A stretch of DNA of 64,000 nucleotides from an uncultured Mycoplasmatales bacterium (GCA_964485375.1 CAZAJD010000001.1:25271-89270); one strand, 5' to 3'. Counted from the stretch's first letter, positions 11,363-54,548 are shown. Made by a program: numbers and translations. The notes: generated by a model from the sequence alone, not told the origin.

Positions 11363-11539
11363 ATGGCTGTACCTTTTAGAAAAACTTCAAAAGCTGCAAA
11401 AAGAAAAAGACGTTCGCATTTCAAAATAGCATTAGGAATTTTAACGGATTGTAAAAATTGTGGTTCTTTTATTAAACCACATCATATTTGTAAAGAATGT
11501 GGATTTTATAAAAAACAAGAAATAATTAAAGCAAAATAA
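11363..11539 (+). CDS. rpmF: 50S ribosomal protein L32
   Basis: AGGAG at 11350-11354, then ATG 11363. MAVPFRKTSKAAKRKRRSHF is the L32 signature; a CxxC..CxxC zinc ribbon follows (CKNCGSF..CKECGFY). Confidence 0.9.
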   Translation: MAVPFRKTSKAAKRKRRSHFKIALGILTDCKNCGSFIKPHHICKECGFYKKQEIIKAK

Positions 11540-26106: not shown

Positions 26107-26819
26107 TGTTAGTAAGATTACAAAAGCAAATTGCAAATAATGGATATTGTTCTCGAAGACAAGCTGAAATTTTAATTGTGAATAGAAAAGTTAAAGTAAA
26201 TAATCTTATTATTGATAAATTAGGTTATAAAGTTAGTGAAAATGATATTATTACAATTAATGGTAAAATTATATCTAAGGTTAATAAAAAAATTTATATT
26301 TTATTTAATAAACCTAGATATGTTGTAACTACTTTAAAAGATCCTCAAAATCGCACGATTATTTTAGATTATTTTAAAGATATTCAAGAAAAAATTTATC
26401 CAATCGGAAGATTAGATTATGATACATCTGGAATCATTTTATTAACAAATGATGGCGATTTTGCACAAAAAGTATCACATCCTAGTAATAATATAAATAA
26501 AACATATTTAGTAATAATAAAGGGGAGGTTAAGTCAAGAAAATATTTATGATTTAGAAAATGGTATTCAAATTACTGAGGATTTCATTACTTCAAATGCT
26601 GAAGTTAATAATTTAAGATATAGAAATAATAAGACTTATATTCATTTAACTATTCATGAAGGGAAAAACCATCAAATTAAAAAAATGTTTTCTTGTTTAG
26701 GGTATCCAGTATTAAAATTAAAGCGAATTAAAATATCCAATATTTCAATTGGGAATTTAAAATCTGGAGAATATAGATTTTTAACTAGTAATGAAGTTTC
26801 TAATATTATGAAAAAATAA
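26106..26819 (+). CDS. rluB: RsuA/RluB-family pseudouridine synthase with S4 domain
   Basis: ATG overlaps the scpB TAA by 1 nt. Motifs: RLQKQIANNGYCSRRQAE, GRLDYDTSGIILLTNDG, EGKNHQIKKM. Confidence 0.85.
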   Translation: MLVRLQKQIANNGYCSRRQAEILIVNRKVKVNNLIIDKLGYKVSENDIITINGKIISKVNKKIYILFNKPRYVVTTLKDPQNRTIILDYFKDIQEKIYPIGRLDYDTSGIILLTNDGDFAQKVSHPSNNINKTYLVIIKGRLSQENIYDLENGIQITEDFITSNAEVNNLRYRNNKTYIHLTIHEGKNHQIKKMFSCLGYPVLKLKRIKISNISIGNLKSGEYRFLTSNEVSNIMKK

Positions 26820-26821
26820 TA

Positions 26822-27424
26822 TTAGAATTTTTTTGCTATTTTAGCTATTTTAGAATCATACTTATCAATTAATTCTTTTGGCATTAATTTAGCATTTTCT
26901 TTTATTTTTGTACCTGAAATTAAAAAAGGTTTATTTACTTTTGCTCCTGCAAATTTTCAAGTATTTTTTAAGTATTTACCAACATTTCCTCATTTGTATC
27001 ATCCCTCAGGTGCTCCTTGGGTAGTTAAAATTTGTACTTGTAAATTAGTTAATAAACCTATTGCTTCTCCTTTTTTGCTATATTTATATGAAAATGTTTT
27101 GTTAGGTACTAAAATATGATCCATATAATTTTTTGCTAGTGTAGTTACATTAAAATTTGTCATTGGTGTTGAAAATATTAATTTATCTATTTTTTTAAGT
27201 TGATTAATGTAATTATCACTATCTTCTTTATTAAAAAATGTATTCATAACTTTTTTGTTTAATGTTTTATTTGCCATATTTACATTAGTTAGATCTAGGT
27301 ATTGAATTTTATCTTTTGAGTTATATTTTTTATAATGTTTTATAAAGCGATTAGTTAATTCAGTTGAATACGATTTTTCATTATTTATCATAGTTGAATA
27401 AATTACTAATATATTTTTTTGCAT
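26822..27424 (-). CDS. azoR: FMN-dependent NADH-azoreductase (flavodoxin-like fold)
   Basis: Track ORF 26999-27424(-) continues through three TGA (..GAPEGWYKWGNVGKYLKNTWKFAG..) to TAA (complement of 26822-26824), 603 nt in total. The N-terminus ILVIYST...SYS and ..FSTPMTNFNV.. are typical AzoR/AcpD. Confidence 0.8.
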
Positions 27425-27464
27425 ATAATAATTTTTACCTTTCTCTTTAAAATATTTATTGTTA

Positions 27465-27493
27465 TAATAATATCATTATTAATAATATCATTA
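27465..27493. repeat. 14-nt direct repeat (taataatatcatta x2, period 15) in the azoR / riboswitch divergent intergenic region
   Basis: Copies at 27465-27478 and 27480-27493 are identical. A perfect 14-nt palindrome actttttaaaaagt follows at 27520-27533. Confidence 0.7.
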
Positions 27494-27535
27494 CTAATCA
27501 TATATGAGTATTTAAATGTACTTTTTAAAAAGTTT

Positions 27536-27672
27536 AAAAAGGAATTAAGTGAAAATCTTAAGCTATCCTAGTAACTGTAATGTGGATGAAAACTTCAATA
27601 ACCATTGAAATGAAAATTTTGAGAAGGGAAGTTAGTAATGTGATACAAGCCAGTAGACTTGCATTTAAATAT
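27536..27672 (+). promoter_or_regulatory. Cobalamin (B12) riboswitch aptamer, AT-rich variant
   Basis: GGAAUUAAGUGAAAAUCUUAAGCUAUCCUAGUAACUGUAA (27541-27580) parallels the conserved core GGGAA-nnnGGUGAAAAUCCnnnGC..CCCGCCACUGUAA, with a perfect UUAAG/CUUAA stem around the GUGAAAAUC loop. GAGAAGGGAAGUUAG (27621-27635) matches the GGGAAG element. AAGCCAGUAGACUUGCA (27647-27663) matches the B12 box rAGYCMGgAgaCCkGCc at 13 of 16 positions by eye. This stretch is locally much more G+C-rich than its surroundings. Confidence 0.7.
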
Positions 27673-27717
27673 ATTTTTTTGTTATTTCTAGGGAAAATAA
27701 TATATTTTTTGTTTTTT
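27667..27717 (+). terminator. Candidate expression-platform hairpin plus T tract downstream of the B12 box
   Basis: aaatatatt (27667-27675) pairs with aatatattt (27699-27707), and t27677-t27680 pair with a27694-a27697. The hairpin is followed by tttgtttttt. The stem is all A-U, so it is weak. Confidence 0.35.
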
Positions 27718-27800
27718 ATATAAACAATAATTTTCGAATTTCCTTTTTTAATAATAATTATATTTATAATGATTATAGTAATTTGGAAAAGGAAAAGAAT

Positions 27801-28244
27801 ATGAAATCATTAATTACTATTTTATTTACATTTATTTTAGGTAGTGGCACTACAAATATTAATTATATACCCAAAAATTTACCAACTAGTTTTTTAACAA
27901 TCGATATATTAAAACATAATTTGGAAATTGAACAAATAGATTATTATAATATTGATTGATCTCAATCTAAAAGACTAGGTAATTTTATATCTAATAATAA
28001 ATGTTCTAATCCAATTTTTGTAGATAAACAACCTTTTGTTTTTCAAACATCTAATCTAGGAAGATTTTTAAATGATATTAAAGATGAAAAAGGGAATAAT
28101 ATAGTTAAAAGTCATAAACAGTATTGAGAAATATTTTACTTAGATCCTTTTACATCAAGATTAACTCCTTCTTTATCAGGTATCGATTCAATTTTAATCG
28201 ATAATAACCATAATTCATTTGCATTTATTTTAGAAAATTTTTAG
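27801..28244 (+). CDS. Hypothetical small exported/signal-anchored protein (first gene behind the B12 riboswitch)
   Basis: ATG 27801 preceded by ggaaaaggaaaag; two in-frame TGA; TAG 28242-28244. The N-terminus MKSLITILFTFILGSGTT is hydrophobic and the rest is hydrophilic. It is absent from the track because TGA splits it. No family recognised. Confidence 0.5.
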
Positions 28245-28248
28245 TATT

Positions 28249-28722
28249 ATGATTGTTAAAAAAATTTTTTTAATCCCATTAACTTTTATTAGTTTTATTT
28301 TATTTTTATTTATACTCCCTTTACTTCAATCTTATTTTTCTAAAGATATATTAACTGCGCCAGAAGAAGTAACTATTCCTATTTGATGAGATAAAAAAAC
28401 TCTTGCTGATAAAGGGGAAGGACCTAATTATGAAAGACATTTTTATAATATTAAAAATGGATATTCTAATTTATTTTCTTTATTAGAAAAAGATAAAAAT
28501 TTTAAAATTAATTATGATAATTTCACACTTTTAAGTATTTTTGCACCTAAACATCCAGGATGTAAACCAGAATGGATAAAATCTAATTCTAATTTAGTTT
28601 GAAAGTGATATAATGCATCAAAACCTACTACTATTATAAGTGGTAATTTAAAAAAAATTCCAATTACACATGGAAGAAATCTTTTTTATTTAGAATTAAA
28701 ATGTAAAAATGGATCAATATAA
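28249..28722 (+). CDS. Hypothetical small signal-anchored protein (second gene of the riboswitch operon)
   Basis: ATG 28249 lies 4 nt after the previous stop; four TGA plus one TGG; TAA 28720-28722. N-terminal TM segment IFLIPLTFISFILFLFILPLL followed by a ~125-aa soluble domain with 2 Cys. No family recognised. Confidence 0.5.
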
Positions 28723-29266
28723 TTCGATTTTTAAATATATTTTTAAAATTACAATTATTTCAATGTTTGTATCACTTTGTATTGTCTTAAGATATATTTT
28801 AATTTTTTTACCTAATGTTGAATTAATTACATTTTTATTAATGATGTCTGTGATAGTTTTCCAATGGAAAACCTCGATTTTAATAATTAATTGCTTCTGT
28901 TTTTCTCAAGTAGTTTTATTTAGTTTTATTGATTTACCATACTTTTATATATTCAATTTATATTGATTAATTACCTTTATTTTCAGAAAAATGATTTTAA
29001 AATTTTGATATATTTTGCCAATATTATTATTTTTTTATGGACTTGCTTTCGGATTACTATATTCATTAGAAATGTGATTATTATATAGTTTGCCATTCGC
29101 TATATCATATTGAATTACTGGTTTAATTTTTGATATAACACATGCAATTTCTAGTATGATCTTTGGATTTCTGTTTTATATTCCTGTTATAAAAACAATG
29201 AAAATGTTATCTATAAATAAAACTTTTTTATTTGATGACTATTTTTTAGATAAATATTCATTTTAA
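28709..29266 (+). CDS. Six-TM membrane protein, ECF S-component-like (candidate corrinoid-specific S component)
   Basis: Track ORF 28709-28966 extends through four TGA to TAA 29264-29266 and overlaps the previous gene by 14 nt. About 185 aa with six hydrophobic segments, the size and topology typical of ECF S components. The functional idea comes from riboswitch context only. Confidence 0.45.
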
Positions 29267-29322
29267 TTGCATTAATTATAAATAGAATCTATAATTAATA
29301 TAAAATAATTGAGGTAATAAGA

Positions 29323-29991
29323 TTGCAGAGCGCTAATGAACAATATATTAACATTAATACTCATCATCATCATAATTCTTATAATCCAAACCAAAAAATA
29401 TTTAAAATAGTTCTAACTGGATTATTTTTGACTTTATCTACTATTTTATCTCTTATTGAAATAAAATTTTATTTACCTTGAGGTGTCGAGATGGACTTAC
29501 GCCTTTTTGATATGGTTTTTTTATTTTTATCTGTTACTGTACTTGGTGTTTATTATGCCTCTATTGCAGGGCTATTACAGCCATGATTTCATCTTGCTGT
29601 TGATGGAGATCATTCTGCAATTTCCATACTTTTTTATAGTATAAGCAATGTTTTGATTATTATAATTTTCTGATTTTTATATTTAAAAGTATTTTCATTT
29701 GCTAAATATTCTAAATTAAAAAATAGTTATAAAAAAGAATTATTATATTTTTTGTTTTTTGTTATTTTTATATTTTTAGCAGCTTCAATAGATTCTTTTT
29801 TTATAATTATCGTTTCTAAAATTACATTAGTTTCTAGTGATAATATTATTAATTTTAGTAAATTTAAGAATCTCTTTATTTTATATTTAATTTTTTTAGG
29901 AATATTTATTGTTAAGTATTTAGTTGCGCTGCTTATTTTTATATCTATTAATAGGAAAAGCACTTTTTTACAAGAACATTATAATAATTAA
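29323..29991 (+). CDS. Polytopic membrane protein, ECF S-component-like, with N-terminal His4 tract
   Basis: GAGGT at 29311-29315, then TTG 29323, in frame with track ORF 29752-29991 via three TGA. The nearby ATG 29336 is out of frame and terminates quickly. The N-terminus ..NINTHHHHNSYNPNQK precedes the first TM segment. Confidence 0.45.
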
Positions 29992-35762: not shown

Positions 35763-36149
35763 GAAAAGCAGATTTGCTAATCGCTGACTTATATAGTTAG
35801 AGGAAACTCCATGCTCATACTTTCTGTGATGAAAGTAGTGATTGTGTTAAAGGAAAAAATAACTTTAAACTTGTAAATTAAATTTACAAGATGGCTGAAT
35901 AAATTGACTAAGTATTTATTAAATTAAATATATGTTAATTTTTTCTGTAAAAGTGCCAAAGAGACGAGGCCTTAAAGAAATTTAAGGAAGTGGAACGTGG
36001 TAAACCCCGCAAATGAGAAACCTAAATTTTGGTAAGGGAATTAAAAATTTCGAAATGAAGAAATTTTTGAATTATAGTTATACTATGATAGATAAATGGT
36101 TAGCATCTTGAAATATAGATACAAAACATGGGTTATAAATCTGCTTTTT
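35763..36149 (+). ncRNA. rnpB: RNase P RNA (bacterial type B)
   Basis: The P4 5' strand AGAGGAAACUCCAUGCUC (consensus GAGGAAAGUCCAUGCUC) is at ~35800-35817, and the 3' strand ACAAAACAUGGGUUA is at ~36121-36135. The terminal P1 pairing is gaaaagcagattt (35763-35775) with aaatctgcttttt (36137-36149). The region is non-coding, and locally G+C-richer blocks sit around the AGUGCCAAAGAGACGAGGCC and GUGGAACGUGGUAAACCCCGCAAAUGAG stretches. Confidence 0.85.
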
Positions 36150-53741: not shown

Positions 53742-53834
53742 TTAAGACTAAAAGTTTTGATATAAAAAATAAGATTATTTAATTTTATTTTTTTTTATGT
53801 TATATTTAAAATATTGAATAAATAGGTGATCTTT

Positions 53835-54548
53835 TTGCAAAAAAAATATAAAAGATGTTTAATTAAGTTATCTGGTGAAGCATTTTCTAATTCAGATGCT
53901 TTATATAATCTTAAATTTATTAAATCTATTGCTAATCAAATTACTAAACTAAATAACGAAGATATTCAATGCGCTATTGTTATTGGTGGTGGTAATATTT
54001 GACGTGGTAAAGAAGCTCAAAAAATCGAGTTAGATACAGTAAATGCTGATTATATGGGAATGATAGCAACAATTATGAATTCAATTGTTCTTGATAATCA
54101 TATTAATAAAATTAAATCTAATACCAGTTGAATTTTATCTAAATTACCAATTTTTGAAATTACTAAACTTTATAATTTTAAAGATGCAATAGAATTATTA
54201 GAAAATAATAAAATAGTTATTTTAGCAGGAGGCACAGGCTCTCCATTATTTACTACAGATACAAGTGCTGTTTTACGAGCTATTGAGATTAATGCTGATA
54301 TAATTTTAATGGCAAAAAATGGGACAGAAGGTGTTTATGATAGCGATCCTAATAAAAACAAAAATGCAAAATTTTATGATAAAATAACATATAAAGATAT
54401 TGAAAACAAAAAATTAGGAGTTATGGATAATACAGCATGTACACTTGCTCAATCTCATAATATTAAAATGCTTGTTTTTGACATCAATCAAAATAGCGCT
54501 ATTTATAATGCTATTAAGGGTAATATAAAACATACATTAGTGTATTAG
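53835..54548 (+). CDS. pyrH: UMP kinase
   Basis: AGGTGA at 53824-53829, then TTG 53835 (GTG 53826 is an alternative); no in-frame ATG upstream of the conserved N-terminus. Motifs: KRCLIKLSGEAF, IVIGGGNIWRG, AGGTGSPLFTTDT, TEGVYDSDP. Joins ORF 54309-54548 via TGA. Confidence 0.9.

What the first reader, a model, noticed from the sequence alone, without database searches (positions are those of the whole stretch)
27536..27717. Cobalamin (B12) riboswitch in a Mollicutes-type minimal genome
A ~140-nt island in the azoR/operon intergenic region is much less AT-rich than its surroundings. It carries, in the correct order, the hallmark elements of the cobalamin riboswitch. First, GGAAUUAAGUGAAAAUCUUAAGC has a perfectly complementary UUAAG/CUUAA stem closing the GUGAAAAUC loop. 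Next come ..CCUAGUAACUGUAA (the equivalent of CCCGCCACUGUAA) and GAGAAGGGAAGU. Last is a B12 box, AAGCCAGUAGACUUGCA. G/C positions of the consensus are often replaced by A/U, as expected in this genome, while the pairing is kept. Mollicutes carry few riboswitches and are not generally regarded as corrinoid users, so a functional B12 sensor would imply an unrecognised corrinoid-dependent physiology. The expression platform is unclear; only a weak all-A-U hairpin plus T tract lies at 27667-27717.
Basis: partly seen in the sequence, partly recalled or inferred. Interest (0 to 1): 0.8.

Follow-up and report, generated by a model that had tools for sequence, protein, structure and literature searches.

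The report
B12 riboswitch controlling a Mollicute vitamin importer
A genuine vitamin-B12-sensing RNA switch sits in front of a B12-uptake gene (a CbrT-type ECF transporter subunit) in an unnamed, extremely AT-rich Mollicute and is conserved in its relatives, so these minimal bacteria almost certainly import and use corrinoids, although the mechanism itself is of a well-known kind.

Summary
Rfam RF00174 (cobalamin riboswitch) matches window 27499-27680 (+) over the full model at 86.8 bits (gathering score 31.5). The genome uses code 4, has 22.6% G+C, and is syntenic with a Mycoplasmatales MAG.

The switch heads a four-gene block. Gene 3 (28709-29266) is a CbrT homologue: its family profile hits only PDB 6FNP_A, the L. 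delbrueckii ECF-CbrT B12 transporter, at E=3.5e-25. Gene 4 has an ECF S-component fold with unknown substrate. Genes 1 and 2 are small orphan exported proteins.

Orthologous riboswitch-cbrT pairs occur at the same site in two related species, and another occurs in a Spiroplasma endosymbiont. Across these four, 94% of pair cells are standard pairs and 23 of 57 pairs change on both sides. This includes a P13 hairpin (27681-27701) whose loop co-varies with loop L5 (CCUAG:CUAGG versus CCCAG:CUGGG), the class-defining kissing loop.

The read-out step is only inferred; the most likely form is B12-dependent burial of the Shine-Dalgarno sequence. No B12-dependent enzyme was found in the sequence available.

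Verdict: a new member of a known kind in an unusual lineage, of modest interest.

The parts
27459..27486 (+). promoter-like site, TTGTTA-16 nt-AATAAT, about 12 nt before the aptamer
   Evidence: 9 of 12 matches. Such sites occur at chance frequency in this AT-rich DNA (29 found, 30.9 expected), so this is only suggestive.
27499..27680 (+). cobalamin riboswitch aptamer (RF00174), with the P6 peripheral extension
   Evidence: 86.8 bits against a gathering score of 31.5, full-length model. Covariation.
27507..27519 (+). P1 5' strand, pairing with 27661-27673
   Evidence: cmscan alignment. Helix 1: 92.7% of cells paired; 5 of 11 pairs change on both sides.
27566..27571 (+). loop L5 (UCCUAG), kissing-loop partner
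   Evidence: CCUAG is complementary to CUAGG in L13. Orthologues have CCCAG:CUGGG or CCAG:CUGG.
27647..27663 (+). B12 box, AAGCCAGUAGACUUGCA
   Evidence: Invariant in the three syntenic orthologues.
27681..27701 (+). P13 hairpin, GUUAUUU[CUAGGGA]AAAUAAU; loop L13 is 27688-27694
   Evidence: Helix 15: 96.4% of cells paired; 4 of 7 pairs change on both sides. The L5 complement occurs only once downstream (shuffle P about 0.01).
27705..27717 (+). U-rich tract (UUUUUUGUUUUUU) after P13; possible weak terminator tail
   Evidence: Not conserved in position in L006 or L008.
27739..27751 (+). anti-Shine-Dalgarno arm (UUUCCUUUUUUAA), pairing with 27783-27795
   Evidence: MFE folds. Its UUUCCUU (27739-27745) is also complementary to AGGGAAA in L13 (27690-27696).
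27783..27797 (+). Shine-Dalgarno region (GGAAAAGGAAAAG) of gene 1, buried in the helix
   Evidence: mean probability unpaired 0.12 against 0.40 overall. Analogous helices in L006 (z=-5.5) and L008 (z=-3.2).
27801..28244 (+). gene 1: 147 aa, hydrophobic N-terminus, no family match; a recurrent neighbour of cbrT
   Evidence: Weak homologue after cbrT in L006 (E=5e-5). The partial ORF before cbrT in L011 has a matching C-terminus.
28249..28722 (+). gene 2: 157 aa, N-terminal membrane anchor, orphan
   Evidence: No homologue was found anywhere.
28709..29266 (+). gene 3: CbrT-type ECF S component (predicted cobalamin/cobinamide binding subunit), 185 aa
   Evidence: 6FNP_A, E=1.1e-14. (family profile hits only 6FNP_A, E=3.5e-25). 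(30% identity). (AF2 pLDDT 94.4).
29323..29991 (+). gene 4: MPN160/MPN527-type ECF S component, unknown substrate, 222 aa, TTG start after a GAGG Shine-Dalgarno; possibly with its own -10 box (TATAAT at about 29290-29295)
   Evidence: NF045740, 1.4e-24. (the database copy is 222 aa). (pLDDT 88.8; the top 13 PDB matches are all S components). (sequence).

Best explanation
This is a functional class-I-type cobalamin riboswitch in the 5' leader of an operon (genes 1-3, perhaps also gene 4). The key product of that operon is a CbrT-type S component of an ECF transporter, the subunit that binds vitamin B12 or cobinamide for import.

When intracellular corrinoid (probably adenosylcobalamin) binds the aptamer (27499-27680), loop L5 (27566-27571) kisses loop L13 of the P13 hairpin (27681-27701). 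That locks P13. Its G-rich loop can then no longer pair with the pyrimidine-rich anti-SD segment (27739-27745). The anti-SD segment is free to bury the Shine-Dalgarno sequence of gene 1 (27783-27797), and expression of the uptake genes drops. This is feedback repression of B12 import.

Shown here: aptamer identity, conservation with compensatory changes, the co-varying kissing loop, and CbrT homology of gene 3. Inferred: the identity of the ligand form, the OFF direction, and translational rather than transcriptional read-out.
For: - Aptamer identity: RF00174 at 86.8 bits over the full model.
- Conservation: orthologous riboswitches lie at the syntenic azoR-cbrT intergenic site in L006/L007 (78.3 bits) and L008 (77.8 bits). 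A shorter one (60.2 bits) lies in front of a cbrT paralogue in a Spiroplasma endosymbiont, L010.
- Structure: on the model-guided alignment of the four sequences, 94.0% of cells are standard pairs against 82.3% in shuffles (0 of 500 shuffles as high). 23 of 57 pairs change on both sides against 10.0 in shuffles. Slid-partner controls give 32-52% paired and 1-5 such pairs. An independent count on the Rfam alignment gives 85% and 18 of 51.
- P13 and kissing loop: P13 is 96.4% paired with 4 of 7 pairs compensatory. Kissing-loop pair U69:A90 in the window corresponds to C:G in the orthologues. The complement occurs exactly once downstream in each sequence (shuffle P = 0.01, 0.013, 0.05, 0.03).
- Gene 3: phmmer against all PDB sequences hits only ECF-CbrT chain 6FNP_A (E=1.1e-14). 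The 40-sequence profile again hits only it (E=3.5e-25, residues 2-175 of 182). Identity is 30%, within the 25-60% range that PMC5997447 quotes for CbrT homologues.
- Platform: SD-burying helices are present in all three syntenic leaders. In the window's nascent transcript, the L13 G's pair with the anti-SD. In L010 the kissing-loop partner CUGG lies 8 nt before the AUG.
- Framework: the logic 'kissing loop stabilises P13; otherwise P13/L13 takes part in an alternative helix' was shown experimentally for the P. megaterium metE switch (PMC10327014).
Against: - The full-length leaders fold into the SD-sequestering helix whether or not P13 is forced. It is 5.6, 13.9 and 8.2 kcal/mol better than the SD-open state in the window, L006 and L008.
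- The anti-sequestor pairing is reproduced by MFE only in the window, not in L006 or L008. Any switching must therefore be kinetic, or the read-out is something else.
- The window's sequestor helix is not significantly more stable than shuffles (z=-1.4).
- L13-target complementarity has only modest support (shuffle fractions 0.10, 0.014, 0.038), and its target position differs between orthologues.
- Foldseek of the gene 3 model did not return 6FNP. It gave only weak S-component matches (best TmRibU, E=1.0, TM 0.50/0.54).
- No EcfAA'T module, corrinoid adenosyltransferase or B12-dependent enzyme is present in the window or the fetched flanks.
- No ligand-binding data exist.
Confidence: 0.8

Rival explanations
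1. The aptamer and target operon are the same, but the read-out is transcription termination. The kissing-loop-stabilised P13, or the longer all-A-U hairpin around it, followed by the U tract at 27705-27717 acts as a weak intrinsic terminator when B12 is bound. The SD-burying helix would then be a constitutive feature.
For: P13 is followed within 3 nt by UUUUUUGUUUUUU. Firmicute corrinoid riboswitches commonly act through terminators coupled to P13 (PMC10327014). The SD helix forms regardless of P13 state in thermodynamic folds, which fits a constitutive element.
Against: P13 alone is very weak (-0.2 to -2.3 kcal/mol). The terminator scan found no terminator in the leader. L006 and L008 have no U tract directly after P13, so the feature is not conserved, whereas the SD-burying helix is.
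Confidence: 0.25
2. It is an activating (ON) corrinoid switch. Without ligand, the 3' strand of P1 (27667-27673) joins the extended all-A-U hairpin 27667-27707, which with its U tract terminates transcription. Ligand-stabilised P1 and P13 prevent this, so B12 would induce the importer.
For: The extended hairpin overlaps the P1 3' strand and consumes the L13 bases. L006 has an analogous long hairpin built on its P1 3' strand, followed by a U-rich tract. One natural activating corrinoid riboswitch is known (A. halodurans cobT, PMC10327014).
Against: Inducing an importer with its own intracellular substrate is physiologically odd. L008 shows no such pairing. AU-rich sequence gives many spurious A-U helices: the whole leader folds no better than shuffles (z=-0.28). 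Nearly all characterised corrinoid riboswitches repress.
Confidence: 0.05
3. The aptamer is an inactive relic, or a chance match in a decaying symbiont genome, with no regulatory role.
For: Reduced genomes generally lose cobalamin riboswitches (PMC4779614). A cbrT-like gene in another Spiroplasma endosymbiont (L009) has no riboswitch and sits among many short ORFs. The Mycoplasmatales MAG L002 lacks the whole cassette.
Against: The score is 55 bits above the gathering score. The element is conserved in at least 3 species whose CbrT proteins are only 47-53% identical. Compensatory changes occur in every helix and in the kissing loop. Downstream ORFs are intact in all of them.
Confidence: 0.03

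Closest known systems
Cobalamin riboswitch RF00174, class I type (for example E. coli btuB, P. megaterium metE, T. tengcongensis AdoCbl riboswitch)
   Same: Full-length match to the model. It has the B12 box, the four-way-junction core, the P6 peripheral extension, and a 5-bp L5-L13 kissing loop to a P13 hairpin placed directly 3' of P1. The inferred repression logic follows the experimentally dissected metE scheme and the translational btuB type (PMC10327014).
   Different: Almost every G-C pair of the consensus helices is replaced by A-U or G-U (aptamer 25% G+C). L5 reads UCCUAG rather than the UCCCG consensus, with a matching change in L13. P13 is only marginally stable on its own (-0.2 kcal/mol). 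The 'off' helix about 40-100 nt downstream appears to be an SD sequestor rather than a G+C-rich terminator. The host is a Mollicute.
ECF-CbrT vitamin B12 transporter of Lactobacillus delbrueckii (PDB 6FNP; Santos et al. 2018, PMC5997447), predicted from B12-riboswitch linkage by Rodionov et al. 2009
   Same: Gene 3 is the only window protein matching it. It matches specifically (no other S-component family in the PDB is hit), over nearly the full length, with similar size (185 against 182 aa). Like many cbrT genes, it lies behind a B12 riboswitch.
   Different: Identity is only 30%. No Pfam or NCBIfam model recognises gene 3. In the window clade it is accompanied by small exported orphan proteins (gene 1 family, gene 2) and often by a second, unrelated S component (gene 4). 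The energising module was not seen. Function is untested.
M. pneumoniae MPN160 / MPN527 family membrane proteins (NCBIfam NF045740, NF046054: 'putative ECF transporter permease subunit')
   Same: Gene 4 matches the C-terminal half of the MPN160 model (E=1.4e-24), and its AF2 model has the S-component fold.
   Different: It is shorter (222 against 386 aa) and carries a His-rich N-terminal tail. Its link to B12 is only positional: the homologue in L002 sits at the same site without a riboswitch or cbrT.

Membership tests
Cobalamin riboswitch (Rfam RF00174) | Covariance-model score at or above the curated gathering threshold over the full model | tested here: met
   86.8 bits against 31.5, model positions 1-189 of 189, E=4.9e-20. 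Same hit in the local scan.
Cobalamin riboswitch (Rfam RF00174) | Conserved B12 box and core junction sequences (GGAA..GUGAAAAUC.., ACUGUAA, GAAGG, AGCCAG.AGAC.UGC) | tested here: met
   All are present in order and invariant among the three syntenic orthologues.
Cobalamin riboswitch (Rfam RF00174) | Consensus helices maintained by compensatory substitutions in orthologues | tested here: met
   94% of cells paired; 23 of 57 pairs change on both sides; 0 of 500 shuffles reach this; slid controls give 1-5 pairs. Caveats: only 4 sequences, and the alignment is fitted to the structure.
Cobalamin riboswitch (Rfam RF00174) | L5-L13 kissing loop linking the aptamer to a P13 hairpin in the expression platform | tested here: met
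   CCUAG:CUAGG in the window, CCCAG:CUGGG in L006, CCAG:CUGG in L008 and L010. The complement occurs once downstream in each. The P13 stem co-varies.
Cobalamin riboswitch (Rfam RF00174) | Selective binding of a corrinoid (class I: adenosylcobalamin) with a structural response | not testable with these tools
CbrT (cobalamin-specific ECF S component) | Specific sequence homology to experimentally characterised CbrT | tested here: met
   Single sequence: only 6FNP_A, E=1.1e-14. 40-sequence profile: only 6FNP_A, E=3.5e-25, nearly full length. 30% identity.
CbrT (cobalamin-specific ECF S component) | Six-helix S-component fold | tested here: inconclusive
   The AF2 model is confident (pLDDT 94.4, all-helical). 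Foldseek against the PDB gave only weak S-component matches (TmRibU TM 0.50/0.54, E=1.0) and did not list 6FNP.
CbrT (cobalamin-specific ECF S component) | Genomic linkage to a B12 riboswitch or B12 genes (the basis of the original prediction) | tested here: met
   A riboswitch lies upstream in the window, L006/L007, L008 and L010. It is absent in L009.
CbrT (cobalamin-specific ECF S component) | Presence of an EcfA/EcfA'/EcfT energising module in the genome | not testable with these tools
   The module is not in the 64 kb window. The rest of the genome could not be retrieved.
CbrT (cobalamin-specific ECF S component) | Binding and ATP-dependent import of cobalamin or cobinamide | not testable with these tools
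   This needs the biochemical and growth assays of PMC5997447.
ECF S component, generic (gene 4) | S-component fold | tested here: met
   pLDDT 88.8. The 13 best PDB matches are all S components (RibU, BioY, ThiT, PanT, FolT), with target-normalised TM up to 0.72.

The most novel reading that the evidence does not exclude
The small exported proteins encoded between the riboswitch and cbrT are extracytoplasmic corrinoid-capture or hand-over partners of the ECF-CbrT transporter. Gene 1 belongs to a family that recurs next to cbrT in three lineages, and gene 2 is an orphan. ECF transporters are defined by working without a separate substrate-binding protein, so this would be a new accessory layer. 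It would let wall-less, host-bound Mollicutes scavenge scarce B12 for a still unidentified B12-dependent enzyme.
Probability: 0.15. Interest if true: 0.65.

Novelty: new member of a known kind. Interest (0 to 1): 0.4.

Why it matters
Comparative surveys describe the cobalamin riboswitch as lost from reduced genomes, including mycoplasmas, ureaplasmas and phytoplasmas (PMC4779614). I found no paper linking a B12 riboswitch or CbrT to Mollicutes or Spiroplasma.

A sensor-plus-importer module is maintained by selection in at least three very AT-rich (about 20% G+C) unnamed Mollicutes and in a Spiroplasma endosymbiont. That implies these minimal cells depend on externally supplied corrinoids, and it predicts an adenosyltransferase and at least one B12-dependent enzyme in genomes of roughly 0.6-0.7 Mb.

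It also gives a natural example of a cobalamin aptamer rebuilt almost entirely from A-U and G-U pairs, which is useful for studying the minimal stability needs of the fold.

The mechanism and parts are otherwise standard, and a routine Rfam-based annotation pass would flag the element.

Tried and rejected
- Word-index homology searches with genes 4 and 3 found only the proteins themselves. Exhaustive HMMER and a two-sequence profile were needed.
- The genome-contig scan gave a single locus, which lacks the cassette.
- Both metagenome scans (a CbrT peptide pattern and a clade-specific riboswitch DNA pattern) found nothing.
- The organism could not be named. Conserved proteins are unnamed singletons at 90% identity, the look-ups returned only Logan contigs, and the SRR accession is in no paper.
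- Foldseek of the gene 3 model did not recover 6FNP.
- The MAFFT alignment A4 mis-registers P13 and P2, so it was not used for pair counts. A covariance model was built instead.
- The anti-sequestor idea was tested and is only partly supported.
- No G+C-rich terminator was found in the leader.
- Genes 1 and 2 are not paralogues.
- Ten unidentified window ORFs were scanned and none is B12-related.
- Regulation of azoR by the riboswitch was rejected because azoR is on the opposite strand and diverges from the riboswitch.

Full report
**Observation.** Every motif listed is in the sequence. A scan of the whole window against Rfam 15 gives a full-length match to RF00174 (cobalamin riboswitch aptamer) at 27499-27680 on the + strand: 86.8 bits against a gathering score of 31.5, E=4.9e-20. 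A local scan with permissive filters finds the same hit and no competing family. The G+C island is genuine, at 0.23-0.30 against 0.12-0.13 on both flanks. Their 3' part contains more than 'a weak AU hairpin'.

**Organism.**
- The window is 22.6% G+C and yields long ORFs (PolC, IleS, PheT and others) only when TGA is read as Trp.
- Its gene order (thyA-folA-plsC-scpA-scpB-rluB ... ppa-cmk-der-gpsA-hup) is shared with a chromosome titled 'MAG: Mycoplasmatales bacterium' (L002).
- It is also shared with two about 20% G+C contigs embedded in large assemblies (L006 from GCA_040777225.1, L008 from GCA_040777105.1).
- Even RplS, HU and RecA are unnamed singletons at 90% identity, so this is an unnamed Mollicute lineage.
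- The upstream divergent gene is an FMN-dependent NADH-azoreductase.

**What is regulated.** Four + strand genes follow the riboswitch.

| Gene | Coordinates | Product | Evidence |
|---|---|---|---|
| 1 | 27801-28244 | 147 aa, hydrophobic N-terminus, no family match | |
| 2 | 28249-28722 | 157 aa, N-terminal membrane anchor, orphan | |
| 3 | 28709-29266 | 185 aa polytopic membrane protein, CbrT homologue | |
| 4 | 29323-29991 | 222 aa, ECF S-component fold, substrate unknown | |

Genes 1 to 3 are separated by 4 nt or overlap by 14 nt.

- *Gene 3.* Pfam and NCBIfam do not recognise it. Against all PDB sequences it hits exactly one chain, 6FNP_A, at E=1.1e-14. A 40-member family profile again hits only that chain, at E=3.5e-25 over residues 2-175 of 182. 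6FNP is the ECF-CbrT vitamin B12 transporter of L. delbrueckii, shown to import cobalamin and cobinamide (PMC5997447). The 182-residue 'membrane protein' chain is, by size and by elimination, CbrT. Identity is 30%, inside the 25-60% range those authors give for CbrT homologues. The AF2 model is confident (pLDDT 94.4). However, Foldseek returned only weak S-component matches and not 6FNP, so membership rests on sequence.
- *Gene 4.* It has a TTG start after a GAGG Shine-Dalgarno sequence, and the database copy has the same 222 aa. It matches the MPN160 and MPN527 'putative ECF permease' families. It belongs to a small family of 34 clusters among 1.84 billion representatives. Its model (pLDDT 88.8) matches only ECF S components at the top of the PDB search. 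Its link to B12 is positional only. In L002 the homologue sits between rluB and ppa with no azoR, no cbrT and no riboswitch, and a good -10 box precedes it in the window.

**Conservation.**
- A profile of gene 3 and its closest relative retrieves CbrT-like proteins from several unnamed AT-rich contigs, from Spiroplasma syrphidicola and from two Spiroplasma endosymbionts. After those come Firmicute 'ECF S components'.
- In L006/L007 and L008, an RF00174 match (78.3 and 77.8 bits) lies in the same azoR-cbrT gap.
- In the Spiroplasma endosymbiont of Amphibalanus improvisus (L010), a shorter aptamer (60.2 bits) precedes a cbrT paralogue.
- L009 has a cbrT-like gene without a riboswitch.
- The gene 1 family recurs next to cbrT: after it in L006 and before it in L011. 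Gene 2 has no relatives.

**Structure and covariation.**
- On the Rfam-guided alignment of the four aptamers, 85% of cells are standard pairs and 18 of 51 pairs show two-sided changes.
- I built a covariance model from the window sequence, including the hairpin just 3' of P1, and realigned the four.
- The pair counter on that alignment gives 94.0% paired against 82.3 ± 1.7 in shuffles, and 23 of 57 pairs with changes on both sides against 10.0 ± 2.1. No shuffle out of 500 reaches either value. Sliding the partners by 1 to 3 columns gives 32-52% paired and 1-5 such pairs.
- Caveats: there are only four sequences, and the alignment was fitted to the structure.
- The hairpin 27681-27701 (GUUAUUU[CUAGGGA]AAAUAAU) is P13. 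Its stem co-varies (4 of 7 pairs).
- Its loop is complementary to L5 (27566-27571): CCUAG:CUAGG here, CCCAG:CUGGG in L006, and CCAG:CUGG in L008 and L010. The window's unusual U in L5 is matched by an A in L13.
- The complement occurs exactly once downstream in each sequence (shuffle P 0.01-0.05 each).
- This is the kissing loop required in characterised corrinoid riboswitches (PMC10327014).

**Read-out.** This step is inferred.
- All three syntenic leaders fold a long helix that buries the Shine-Dalgarno region. In the window this is 27739-27751 pairing with 27783-27795. The z-scores are -1.4 (window), -5.5 (L006) and -3.2 (L008).
- The G-rich L13 is also complementary to part of that helix. 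In the window AGGGAAA pairs with UUUCCUU, using the same G's as the kissing loop. Shuffle fractions are 0.10, 0.014 and 0.038.
- In the window's nascent transcript the MFE indeed forms this anti-sequestor.
- That suggests the metE-like logic with an SD sequestor in place of a terminator. Bound B12 leads to the kissing loop, P13 is locked, the anti-SD is free, and translation is off.
- In L010 the kissing-loop partner lies 8 nt before the AUG, which is direct RBS occlusion.
- Against this model, the anti-sequestor is not the MFE in L006 or L008, and the sequestor dominates the full-length folds regardless of P13 state.
- A weak terminator (P13 or the extended AU hairpin plus the U tract at 27705-27717) remains a rival, but it is not conserved.
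- An ON switch is conceivable, since the AU hairpin competes with P1, but unlikely.

**What is missing.** No ECF energising module, adenosyltransferase or B12-dependent enzyme is present in the window or in the roughly 12 kb around the related loci. The rest of the genome could not be fetched. The literature held here describes cobalamin riboswitches as lost from reduced genomes (PMC4779614). It treats human mycoplasmas simply as auxotrophs for all vitamins (PMC6593275). I found no report of B12 riboswitches or CbrT in Mollicutes.

**Verdict.** This is a bona fide cobalamin riboswitch, conserved under selection, that controls a CbrT-type B12 uptake operon in an unnamed Mollicute clade. The kind is well known. 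The host lineage, the nearly all-A-U architecture and the orphan exported partner proteins are the only unusual aspects. Interest is modest.

Noticed in passing
window 35769-36140 (+): Bacterial RNase P RNA class B, 217.9 bits, full length. It was the only other Rfam hit at gathering score in the 64 kb. The orthologous gene is also at the end of L008.
   Followed up: no
window 29323-29991; family P0001-P0034: Gene 4 belongs to a very small, apparently Mollicutes-restricted S-component family (34 clusters among 1.84 billion representatives). H90 is invariant and H97 nearly invariant (motif PW-x-H...IDG-x-H), and many members carry His-rich N-terminal tails (HHHH, DHYHxxHH). This pattern suggests a metal or metal-cofactor substrate.
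   Followed up: partly
L010 3171-3915 and 6001-6603 (Spiroplasma endosymbiont of Amphibalanus improvisus): There are two cbrT paralogues, one on each side of rny. Only the first has a riboswitch. That riboswitch lacks P2, has a short P1, and places the kissing-loop partner CUGG 8 nt before the start codon.
   Followed up: partly
L002 5847-5932 against window 26819-29323: Presence/absence polymorphism: the Mycoplasmatales MAG goes directly from rluB to the gene 4 homologue. The azoR + riboswitch + cbrT cassette was therefore gained or lost as a block at this site. L008 has the cassette but lacks genes 1, 2 and 4.
   Followed up: partly
L009 5300-6519 (Spiroplasma endosymbiont of Phyllotreta cruciferae): A cbrT-like gene without any detectable riboswitch, surrounded by many very short called ORFs. 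This looks like a degrading region.
   Followed up: partly
window 28856-28872 (+): The only terminator-like hairpin found between 27300 and 30200 lies inside the cbrT coding sequence (GTTTTCCAATGGAAAAC followed by a T-rich tail). It is probably chance.
   Followed up: no
window 29267-29295 (+): TTGCAT-17 nt-TATAAT lies in the 56-nt gap before gene 4. Gene 4 may have its own promoter and be only partly under riboswitch control.
   Followed up: no
window 1-64000: ARAGORN finds no tRNA gene in 64 kb. No T-box or other leader is detected upstream of ileS or pheST at Rfam gathering score.
   Followed up: no
window about 11363-11539 and about 53830-54548: An ATG-only ORF call misses a 58-aa L32 (rpmF) gene before rsmH and truncates pyrH. 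pyrH evidently uses a non-ATG start, so it is not a pseudogene.
   Followed up: partly
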